This document shows positions 25,529 through 27,107 of a DNA stretch of 64,000 nucleotides, in pieces; position 1 is the stretch's first letter; each line of letters begins with the position of its first letter. Below the pieces are notes generated by a model. The model made no database searches. It had not been told where the DNA came from and saw only the letters and a program-made list of their open reading frames with translations. The stretch lies in assembly GCF_003018255.1 (NCBI RefSeq), contig NZ_CP027440.1, one strand, 5' to 3'. Both the position numbers and the translations under genes were made by a program. This DNA comes from Escherichia coli. GTDB lineage: Bacteria; Pseudomonadota; Gammaproteobacteria; Enterobacterales; Enterobacteriaceae.

Positions 25529-25693
25529 GCCTTATCTCCACCTCTTCGCGTCATTACGCGATATTCATTAAAGTGGCGAAAGCATGACAGCAATCACAAA
25601 AAAATGAAAATAACAAAAAGAGAAAACACTTTTGCCATTTTGCTAACAAACAGGAAGGAGATGCGAGGGAGAACGCGCTCCCTCGAGAGGAAA

Positions 25694-25783
25694 TCAGTGC
25701 AGCGCGGCAGTCAAACCCACGGCCACGATCAAACCGAGGACGATAATCGTTGTTACCAGTGAAAATTTAAGGTCGGTGCTCAT
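25694..25783 (-). CDS. ynhF: 29 aa hydrophobic small membrane protein
   Basis: Manual translation of the minus strand: ATG...TGA encoding MSTDLKFSLVTTIIVLGLIVAVGLTAALH; below the ORF-track size cutoff; matches the small protein YnhF I recall between ydhP and purR. Confidence 0.7.
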   Translation of the reverse strand: MSTDLKFSLVTTIIVLGLIVAVGLTAALH

Positions 25784-26021
25784 CAAGTTTTCTCCTTTTT
25801 TATTACCACACAAAAAGTGATATTACGCATTTTTACACACTGTGATGAAAAAATCTCCCGTCATTTATAATGATAAGTGTTTTTACCACTTCCCCTTTTC
25901 GTCAAGATCGGCCAAAATTCCACGCTTACACTATTTGCGTACTGGCCATTGACCCCTTCCTGACGCTCCGTGTCGTTTTTCCGGCGTACCGCAACACTTT
26001 TGTTGTGCGTAAGGTGTGTAA

Positions 26022-26037
26022 AGGCAAACGTTTAGCT
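26022..26037 (+). promoter_or_regulatory. PurR operator (pur box) O1 in the purR leader
   Basis: AGGCAAACGTTTAGCT matches the pur-box core GCAAACGTTT; purR is autoregulated by two downstream operators. Confidence 0.7.
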
Positions 26038-26081
26038 TGCGATTTTGCAGGAGCTGAAGTTAGGGTCTGGAGTGAAATGGA

Positions 26082-27107
26082 ATGGCAACAATAAAAGATG
26101 TAGCGAAACGAGCAAACGTTTCCACTACAACTGTGTCACACGTGATCAACAAAACACGTTTCGTCGCTGAAGAAACGCGCAACGCCGTGTGGGCAGCGAT
26201 TAAAGAATTACACTACTCCCCTAGCGCGGTGGCGCGTAGCCTGAAGGTTAACCACACCAAGTCTATCGGTTTGCTGGCGACCAGCAGCGAAGCGGCCTAT
26301 TTTGCCGAGATCATTGAAGCGGTTGAAAAAAATTGCTTCCAGAAAGGTTACACCCTGATTCTGGGCAATGCGTGGAACAATCTTGAGAAACAGCGGGCTT
26401 ATCTGTCGATGATGGCGCAAAAACGCGTCGATGGTCTGCTGGTGATGTGTTCTGAGTACCCAGAGCCGTTGCTGGCGATGCTGGAAGAGTATCGCCATAT
26501 CCCAATGGTGGTGATGGACTGGGGTGAAGCAAAAGCTGACTTCACCGATGCGGTCATTGATAACGCATTCGAAGGCGGCTACATGGCCGGGCGTTATCTG
26601 ATTGAACGCGGTCATCGCGAAATCGGCGTTATCCCTGGCCCGCTGGAACGTAACACCGGCGCAGGCCGCCTTGCCGGTTTTATGAAGGCGATGGAAGAAG
26701 CGATGATCAAAGTGCCGGAAAGCTGGATTGTACAGGGTGACTTTGAACCTGAATCCGGTTATCGCGCCATGCAGCAAATACTGTCGCAACCGCATCGCCC
26801 TACTGCCGTCTTCTGTGGTGGCGATATCATGGCAATGGGCGCACTTTGTGCTGCTGATGAAATGGGTCTGCGCGTGCCGCAGGATGTTTCGCTGATCGGT
26901 TATGATAACGTGCGCAACGCCCGCTATTTTACGCCAGCGCTGACCACGATCCATCAGCCAAAAGATTCGCTGGGCGAAACGGCGTTCAACATGCTGTTGG
27001 ATCGTATCGTCAATAAACGCGAAGAACCGCAGTCCATTGAAGTGCATCCGCGCTTGATTGAACGCCGCTCCGTGGCTGACGGCCCGTTCCGCGACTATCG
27101 TCGTTAA
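26082..27107 (+). CDS. purR: purine repressor (LacI family)
   Basis: 341 aa [31 protein letters not shown]...; recognised as PurR. Confidence 0.95.
26110..26125 (+). promoter_or_regulatory. PurR operator (pur box) O2 inside the purR coding region
   Basis: GAGCAAACGTTTCCAC at codons 10-15 of purR; second pur-box match. Confidence 0.65.

What the first reader, a model, noticed from the sequence alone, without database searches (positions are those of the whole stretch)
25694..25783. 29-codon hydrophobic small ORF between ydhP and purR, absent from the ORF track
The minus strand encodes MSTDLKFSLVTTIIVLGLIVAVGLTAALH (one predicted TM helix) with ATG start and TGA stop, matching the small membrane protein YnhF I recall. 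Such sub-50-aa proteins are systematically missed by length-thresholded ORF calling and their functions are largely unknown.
Basis: partly seen in the sequence, partly recalled or inferred. Interest (0 to 1): 0.4.

Follow-up and report, generated by a model that had tools for sequence, protein, structure and literature searches.

The report
Known gene cydH (ynhF), oxidase subunit
The 29-codon reading frame is real, but it is the well-known E. coli gene cydH (formerly ynhF), whose product is a one-helix membrane peptide already seen in solved structures as the fourth subunit of the respiratory enzyme cytochrome bd-I, so the finding is correct and not new.

Summary
Observation confirmed: window 25694-25783 (minus strand) is ATG...TGA and encodes MSTDLKFSLVTTIIVLGLIVAVGLTAALH, with an AGGAG ribosome-binding site 8 nt upstream. 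RefSeq annotates it at exactly these coordinates as cydH, "cytochrome bd-I accessory subunit CydH". It is present in 5,424 of 5,426 complete E. coli genomes. The peptide is identical over all 29 residues to chain H of PDB 6RKO and passes the NCBIfam equivalog model NF033411.

In 109 loci from 27 named genera, anchored on the neighbouring purR gene, the frame is always intact and always 29 codons long. Third codon positions vary most, and pN/pS is 0.25, against 1.2-1.6 in the shifted frames. Published cryo-EM and intact-mass spectrometry show the formylated peptide bound to CydA, where it shields heme b595.

Side finding: the Rfam "sRNA" family STnc550 matches full-length over the purR-cydH spacer plus this ORF. 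Its predicted structure has no covariation support, so the family largely describes the cydH coding sequence plus DNA conserved around divergent purR.

Verdict: already known; low interest.

The parts
25694..25783 (-). cydH (ynhF) coding sequence: 29 codons plus a TGA stop, encoding a single-transmembrane-helix subunit of cytochrome bd-I
   Evidence: Translation. RefSeq CDS at identical coordinates, WP_000102278.1. Identical to PDB 6RKO chain H. NF033411 equivalog, 50.2 bits. pN/pS 0.25 across 106 distinct syntenic sequences.
25792..25796 (-). Shine-Dalgarno sequence AGGAG, 8 nt upstream of the ATG
   Evidence: Read directly from the sequence. Moderately conserved in the 109-locus alignment. 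Its function as a ribosome-binding site is inferred.
25828..25839 (-). Highly conserved upstream block TGTGTAAAAATG, which reads as an extended -10-like element (TG-n-AAAAAT). Candidate cydH promoter; inferred, not shown.
   Evidence: At least 95% conserved columns in the 109-locus alignment, while the neighbouring bases vary. The simple sigma-70 scan found no minus-strand promoter here, so this assignment is inference only.
25849..25855 (-). Conserved block GATTTTT upstream of the candidate -10 element; role unknown (possibly a regulator or UP-like element)
   Evidence: At least 95% conserved columns in the 109-locus alignment.
25664..25685 (-). GC-rich hairpin CGAGGGAG-CGCGTT-CTCCCTCG, starting 9 nt after the stop codon. 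Probably the terminator or 3'-end stabiliser of a monocistronic cydH transcript.
   Evidence: MFE fold: 8-bp perfect stem, -17.6 kcal/mol for the 71-nt stretch, z = -1.8. A hairpin is present at the same place in relatives although the sequence is not conserved: 90 of 109 loci have z < -2, median z -3.3. The U-tract is weak, and the consensus terminator scan did not call it.
25691..26081 (-). Full-length match to Rfam RF02081 'STnc550' (annotated as an enterobacterial sRNA). It covers the whole purR-cydH spacer plus the cydH ORF.
   Evidence: 388 bits against a gathering score of 48, model positions 1-388 of 388. The unstructured 3' part of the model is the cydH coding sequence. The consensus structure has no covariation support.

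Best explanation
This is the gene cydH (older names ynhF and cydY). It is translated from the ATG at 25783 into a 29-residue peptide that keeps its N-formyl-methionine and forms one transmembrane helix. [quoted passage not shown] It sits in a cleft between transmembrane helices 1 and 9 of CydA. There it covers the membrane-facing access to heme b595, which is the site used as the oxygen entry in the Geobacillus enzyme and as a menaquinone site in mycobacteria. As a result, O2 reaches heme d through a separate narrow channel that starts on CydB. The gene is an orphan: it lies outside the cydABX operon, between ydhP and purR, and is reported to be expressed under low oxygen. Shown: the identity of the peptide, its presence in the purified enzyme and its binding site. 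Inferred from structure: the channel-blocking role. Inferred here from conservation only: the promoter and terminator assignments.
For: Sequence identity to PDB 6RKO chain H and 7 further entries. NCBIfam equivalog NF033411 'cytochrome bd-I oxidase subunit CydH', 50.2 bits against a cut-off of 30. RefSeq CDS 'cydH' at the same coordinates, present in 5,424 of 5,426 complete E. coli genomes and at least 99% identical in 5,413. Thesseling et al. 2019 (PMC6853902) identified the fourth subunit by MS as YnhF, described the gene as lying between ydhP and purR and outside the cyd operon, reported low-oxygen expression and a retained fMet, and proposed that it blocks the dioxygen channel. Reviews and later structures agree. 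Top-down MS detects intact, formylated CydH at 100% coverage. New here: at the syntenic position upstream of purR, 109 of 109 loci with enough flank, from 27 named genera, carry an intact ATG-started ORF of exactly 29 codons. There are 106 distinct DNA sequences and 76 distinct peptides. Per-position entropy is 0.59/0.35/1.35 for codon positions 1/2/3. pN/pS is 0.25 (dN/dS about 0.13), against 1.19 and 1.59 in the shifted frames. No cyd genes occur in the first 50 kb of the window's reference equivalent.
Against: Nothing contradicts the identity. The functional claim is weaker. The channel-blocking role is deduced from structures, and none of the papers I could search reports a cydH deletion phenotype. 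E. coli bd-II and the mycobacterial bd oxidases work without such a subunit, using a conserved isoleucine as the barrier. A dual membrane orientation has been reported for CydH, cited. The original expression papers (Hemm 2008 and 2010, Guan 2011) are not held and were seen only through citation. I found no ribosome-profiling paper that mentions ynhF.
Confidence: 0.96

Rival explanations
1. The locus is a non-coding small RNA (Rfam STnc550), and the 29-codon ORF inside it is incidental.
For: Full-length Rfam hit at 388 bits, typed 'Gene; sRNA'.
Against: The ORF portion shows a coding substitution pattern: third-position entropy is 2-4 times higher, pN/pS is 0.25 against more than 1 in the other frames, and there are no indels in 109 loci. 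The peptide is physically observed. The Rfam consensus structure has 21 pairs with changes on both sides, against 23-30 in the slid controls, so covariation is not above background. No paper in the library mentions STnc550.
Confidence: 0.01
2. The transcript has two functions. As well as encoding CydH, a long 5' leader (the 5' 300 nt of STnc550) runs antisense to the purR 5' region and influences purR expression, or the reverse.
For: The Rfam family begins at the base next to the purR ATG and spans the whole spacer, which is strongly conserved.
Against: No minus-strand sigma-70-like promoter was found near 26081-26150. There is no covariation support for leader structure. The best 'helix' (26022-26037) has an invariant AAACGTTT core with no compensatory changes, as expected of a protein-binding DNA palindrome serving purR. 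That would explain the conservation without any RNA role. A sharply conserved extended -10-like block sits only about 45 nt upstream of the ATG, which suggests a short leader.
Confidence: 0.04
3. The real product is the longer 39-aa protein that starts at the upstream TTG (25813), as the mechanical ORF list gives it.
For: the ORF listing reports 25694-25813 with a TTG start.
Against: The PDB chain and the intact-mass MS are 29 residues with fMet at the ATG. The in-frame upstream extension varies in length, sequence and start codon among relatives, or is absent, while the ATG is invariant. The AGGAG lies inside the putative extension, correctly spaced for the ATG.
Confidence: 0.01
4. It is a chance ORF with no product.
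For: Short ORFs are abundant: 76 of at least 20 aa in 4.5 kb.
Against: All of the conservation and protein evidence above.
Confidence: 0

Closest known systems
CydH / CydY (YnhF), fourth subunit of E. coli cytochrome bd-I (PDB 6RKO chain H; UniProt A5A618; NCBIfam NF033411)
   Same: Identical 29-residue sequence, the same genomic position between ydhP and purR, and the same RefSeq protein WP_000102278.1.
   Different: Nothing; this is that gene.
CydX / AppX / CydS, the other small single-helix subunit of bd oxidases
   Same: Also a peptide under 40 aa with one transmembrane helix, bound to CydA and missed by early annotation.
   Different: CydX is encoded in the cydABX operon, binds the opposite side of CydA (TM1, 5, 6) and is needed for assembly and stability. 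CydH is an orphan gene, binds between TM1 and TM9 and shields heme b595. No sequence relationship between them was detected or claimed.
Rfam RF02081 STnc550 (enterobacterial sRNA)
   Same: The covariance model matches window 25691-26081 (minus strand) end to end at 388 bits.
   Different: The 3' quarter of the model is the cydH coding sequence under purifying selection. The 5' three quarters are the purR-cydH spacer, whose predicted helices lack covariation. It therefore behaves as an mRNA plus shared regulatory DNA, not as a structured non-coding RNA.

Membership tests
CydH/YnhF family (NCBIfam NF033411, equivalog) | Whole-protein HMM score above the curated cut-off (30 bits) | tested here: met
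   50.2 bits, E = 1.7e-13, covering residues 1-29 of a 29-position profile.
CydH/YnhF family | Sequence of the peptide seen as the fourth subunit in solved bd-I structures | tested here: met
   29 of 29 residues identical to 6RKO chain H, with 7 further entries carrying the same sequence.
CydH/YnhF family | Peptide of about 29 aa consisting of one hydrophobic transmembrane helix, with length conserved | tested here: met
   Residues 8-28 are almost entirely hydrophobic. The ORF is exactly 29 codons in 109 of 109 syntenic loci, with M1, T11, T12, L16, I19 and A26 invariant.
CydH/YnhF family | Orphan gene between ydhP and purR, outside the cydABX operon | tested here: met
   (no cyd genes within the first 50 kb of the window's reference equivalent); stated in PMC6853902.
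CydH/YnhF family | Physical association with CydA in the bd-I complex of this organism | not testable with these tools
   Established for E. coli by cryo-EM and MS in the literature. The sequence here is identical.
CydH/YnhF family | Co-occurrence with long-Q-loop (L-subfamily) CydAB in the same genome | not tested
   Reported in the review PMC8951039, citing Safarian 2019. The loci fetched here do not include cydAB.
CydH/YnhF family | Expression under low oxygen | not testable with these tools
   Seen only through citation of Hemm 2008/2010; the original papers are not held. No FNR- or ArcA-type site could be assigned by eye.
Rfam RF02081 STnc550 (sRNA) | Covariance-model score above the gathering threshold | tested here: met
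   388 bits against 48.
Rfam RF02081 STnc550 (sRNA) | Conserved RNA secondary structure supported by compensatory changes | tested here: not met
   62 non-redundant sequences: 68% of cells paired, against 40-44% in the slid controls, which is expected for a structure derived from these sequences. Pairs with changes on both sides number 21, against 23-30 in the slid controls.
Rfam RF02081 STnc550 (sRNA) | Non-coding | tested here: not met
   Model positions of about 296-385 are the cydH ORF, with pN/pS 0.25 and an observed protein product.

The most novel reading that the evidence does not exclude
The cydH transcript may have a second role. If a long form really starts next to the purR start codon, as the Rfam STnc550 boundaries imply, it would be fully complementary to the purR 5' leader. 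That could couple purine-repressor expression to the low-oxygen induction of the bd-I accessory subunit. Separately, the physiological consequence of losing CydH appears not to be reported in the papers I could search, so its true contribution to bd-I (gas selectivity, protection of heme b595, quinone-site occlusion) is still experimentally open.
Probability: 0.04. Interest if true: 0.4.

Novelty: already known. Interest (0 to 1): 0.07.

Why it matters
It matters mainly as a check on the scan. The first-stage reader correctly picked a genuine 29-aa gene out of raw sequence that a length-thresholded ORF track omits. That gene now has a name, a structure and a proposed role in a respiratory oxidase that is being pursued as an antibiotic target. 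Nothing new about the gene itself emerges. The cross-genus analysis adds a clean quantitative demonstration of purifying selection on a 29-codon frame. The one mildly useful by-product is that the Rfam family STnc550 appears to be a mis-typed mRNA and regulatory region rather than a structured sRNA.

Tried and rejected
- The search for homologous proteins and the search for related loci both rejected the 29-aa peptide as too short. I replaced them with a degenerate DNA pattern for the PurR N-terminus as a synteny anchor.
- **Pfam has no model for the peptide**.
- **Original papers not held.** Hemm 2008, Hemm 2010 and Guan 2011 could not be read and were used only through their citation in PMC6853902.
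- **Literature searches with no hits.** 'ynhF' plus 'ribosome profiling' and 'STnc550' each returned nothing. 'ynhF' with ArcA/FNR returned no paper containing ynhF.
- **Consensus scans.** The promoter/terminator scan found no minus-strand promoter for cydH and did not call the post-stop hairpin as a terminator. The promoter and terminator assignments rest on conservation only.
- **PurR-box search.** My recalled perfect palindrome ACGCAAACGTTTGCGT found nothing at up to 3 mismatches. The candidate at 26022-26037 has 4 mismatches by my own count, so calling it the purR operator remains a lead from memory, not a tested result.
- **FNR/ArcA sites.** I looked by eye upstream of cydH and found none convincing, so I make no claim.
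- **Open antisense frame.** One antisense frame is open in 104 of 106 sequences. I reject it as a gene: stops in that frame would need sense codons beginning TA or CA after a T or C, which a hydrophobic helix almost never has, so the openness follows from composition.
- **39-aa TTG-start form** rejected; see the rival explanations.

Full report
**1. Observation**

The minus strand of window 25694-25783 reads ATG AGC ACC GAC ... CAC TGA and translates to MSTDLKFSLVTTIIVLGLIVAVGLTAALH*. An AGGAG lies at 25796-25792, 8 nt before the ATG.

With the threshold lowered to 20 aa, the mechanical ORF list shows the same frame as a 39-aa ORF from an upstream TTG at 25813.

A short ORF is not itself unusual, since 76 ORFs of at least 20 aa overlap the surrounding 4.5 kb. 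The case must therefore rest on other evidence.

**2. Identity**

- The 801 bp around the ORF match 5,425 of 5,426 complete E. coli genomes, and the feature under the match is annotated 'cydH: cytochrome bd-I accessory subunit CydH'.
- In strain 118UI the CDS sits at exactly the window's coordinates, 25694-25783 minus, protein WP_000102278.1.
- A 201-bp query centred on the ORF is found in 5,424 of 5,426 genomes, at 99% identity or more in 5,413.
- The peptide is identical over 29 of 29 residues to PDB 6RKO chain H and to seven further entries, named 'Uncharacterized protein YnhF / Cytochrome bd-I ubiquinol oxidase CydH'.
- It scores 50.2 bits against the NCBIfam equivalog model NF033411, whose cut-off is 30. 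Pfam has no model.
- The exact sequence is on record on at least 1,000 contigs, under the names 'stress response protein YnhF' and 'cytochrome bd-I accessory subunit CydH'.

**3. What is published**

- Thesseling et al. 2019 (PMC6853902) found an unexpected fourth, single-helix subunit of about 3 kDa in purified E. coli bd-I and identified it by MS as YnhF. They noted that it is made under low oxygen and keeps its formyl-methionine. They also noted that its gene is not in the cyd operon but lies between ydhP and purR. They proposed that it blocks the dioxygen channel leading to heme b595, which is conserved with the Geobacillus enzyme.
- Reviews place it in a cleft between TM1 and TM9 of CydA, stabilised by a lipid. 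They note that the same site holds a menaquinone in mycobacteria, and that homologues co-occur with long-Q-loop bd oxidases in proteobacteria.
- E. coli bd-II lacks such a subunit.
- Cryo-EM work from 2025-26 again models the CydA-CydB-CydX-CydH heterotetramer.
- Top-down MS detects intact, N-formylated CydH at 100% coverage.
- A bacterial two-hybrid screen recovered it as an RNase E interactor. The authors attributed this to generic transmembrane-helix stickiness.
- I found no report of a cydH deletion phenotype in the searchable library. The channel-blocking role therefore remains an inference from structure.

**4.

The homology tools refuse a 29-aa query. I therefore anchored on synteny. 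A degenerate DNA pattern for the first 13 PurR residues was scanned against one genome per species and returned 120 loci.

Upstream of purR, on the opposite strand, 109 loci carry a CydH-like ORF whose ATG lies about 236-309 nt from the purR ATG. The 11 loci without one are explained as follows:
- Eight have under 375 nt of upstream sequence, too little to hold the ORF. These include the Salmonella and K. pneumoniae representatives.
- Three are Firmicutes or Tenericutes contigs that matched the anchor pattern but are not enterobacterial: L027, L043 and L081.

The 109 positive loci come from 27 named genera, running from Escherichia through Klebsiella, Kosakonia, Buttiauxella and Mangrovibacter to Acerihabitans. 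Their properties are:
- Every ORF starts with ATG and is exactly 29 codons long. The stop codon is TGA in 81 and TAA in 28.
- There are 106 distinct DNA sequences and 76 distinct peptides.
- M1, T11, T12, L16, I19 and A26 are invariant.
- Mean column entropy is 0.59, 0.35 and 1.35 for codon positions 1, 2 and 3.
- Nei-Gojobori pN/pS is 0.25 (ratio of mean dN to mean dS 0.13). The same DNA read in the two shifted frames gives 1.19 and 1.59.
- The in-frame sequence upstream of the ATG varies in length and start codon, which argues for the ATG and against the 39-aa form.

**5. Transcription-unit anatomy (inference)**

- *Downstream.* The sequence is not conserved, but a GC-rich hairpin follows the stop almost everywhere. 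In the window it is CGAGGGAG/CTCCCTCG at 25685-25664. In 90 of 109 loci the 60 nt after the stop fold with z < -2. I read this as a terminator or 3'-end stabiliser that separates cydH from ydhP, although the U-tract is weak and the consensus scan did not call it.
- *Upstream.* Two sharply conserved blocks stand out: GATTTTT (25855-25849) and TGTGTAAAAATG (25839-25828). The second reads as an extended -10 element (TG-n-AAAAAT), which would give a leader of about 40 nt. This is not shown, and the consensus promoter scan found nothing on this strand.

**6. Side finding: Rfam STnc550**

Rfam RF02081 'STnc550', typed as an enterobacterial sRNA, matches 25691-26081 on the minus strand end to end at 388 bits. 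The match begins at the base next to the purR ATG and ends 3 nt beyond the cydH stop. Its unstructured 3' quarter is the cydH coding sequence, with every third consensus base weakly conserved.

I mapped the Rfam consensus structure onto 62 non-redundant relatives:
- 68% of cells are paired, against 40-44% in the slid controls. That is expected for a structure derived from these sequences.
- Pairs with changes on both sides number 21, against 23-30 in the slid controls. Covariation is therefore not above background.
- The best helix (26037-26022) has an AAACGTTT core present in every sequence that aligns there (59 of 62; the other 3 have gaps) and no compensatory change. That pattern fits a protein-binding DNA palindrome.
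- The helix resembles the PurR operator I recall, but it has 4 mismatches to that recalled consensus, and a search allowing up to 3 mismatches found nothing. This is a lead only.

No paper in the library mentions STnc550. My reading is that the family mostly captures the cydH mRNA plus DNA conserved for the divergent purR gene. A regulatory long leader is not excluded, but it is unsupported.

**7. Verdict**

Interest is low. The residual open questions are the in vivo phenotype of losing CydH, its regulator and its true 5' end. These are ordinary follow-ups, not surprises.

Noticed in passing
window 25691-26081, minus strand: Rfam RF02081 'STnc550', typed as an sRNA, matches full-length at 388 bits. 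It consists of the purR-cydH spacer plus the cydH coding sequence. Its consensus structure shows no covariation above the slid controls in 62 non-redundant relatives, so the family looks like an mRNA and regulatory region rather than a structured non-coding RNA.
   Followed up: partly
window 26022-26037: Palindrome AGCTAAACGTTTGCCT, about 50 nt upstream of the purR ATG, forms the best 'helix' of the Rfam model. Its AAACGTTT core is present in all 59 relatives that align there, with no compensatory changes. It resembles the PurR operator recalled from memory (4 mismatches to a perfect palindrome; not found at up to 3 mismatches), so purR autoregulation is a plausible reason for its conservation.
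   Followed up: partly
window 25664-25685, minus strand: A hairpin immediately after the cydH stop is conserved as a structure but not as sequence across genera (90 of 109 loci fold with z < -2). Many share a GAGGGAG/CTCCCTC-type stem. The U-tract is weak.
   Followed up: partly
window 25828-25855, minus strand: Two sharply conserved upstream blocks, GATTTTT and TGTGTAAAAATG (extended -10-like), are separated by a variable stretch. They are candidate promoter or regulator sites for the reported low-oxygen induction. No FNR or ArcA consensus was recognisable by eye.
   Followed up: partly
window 25604-25762, plus strand: A 52-aa ORF lies antisense to cydH, and one antisense frame is open in 104 of 106 relatives. 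This is explained by the amino-acid composition of the sense helix, since stops in that frame need sense TA or CA codon starts. It is not taken as a gene.
   Followed up: yes
E. coli genome collection: One match to the cydH region lies on a plasmid. Two of 5,426 complete genomes lack the 201-bp region. One genome (H40, NZ_CP190018.1) has two places, the best covering only 86% of the query, which suggests a rearrangement there.
   Followed up: no
L122 43736-43930 (the reference equivalent of the window; collinearity checked only around 22.6-28 kb): RefSeq annotates another small protein gene, ynhH (195 nt), immediately upstream of pykF. It is a further recently added short ORF that is probably also inside this window.
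   Followed up: no
L027, L043, L081: Three non-enterobacterial contigs (Faecalicatena, Candidatus Izimaplasma and a Clostridiales MAG) match the 38-nt degenerate PurR N-terminus pattern exactly but have no cydH-like ORF upstream. They are probably LacI-family regulators with the same N-terminal helix-turn-helix residues.
   Followed up: no
literature (PMC12529367): [quoted passage not shown] This conflicts with the bd-II structure paper, which found no fourth subunit. It is probably a slip for bd-I.
   Followed up: yes
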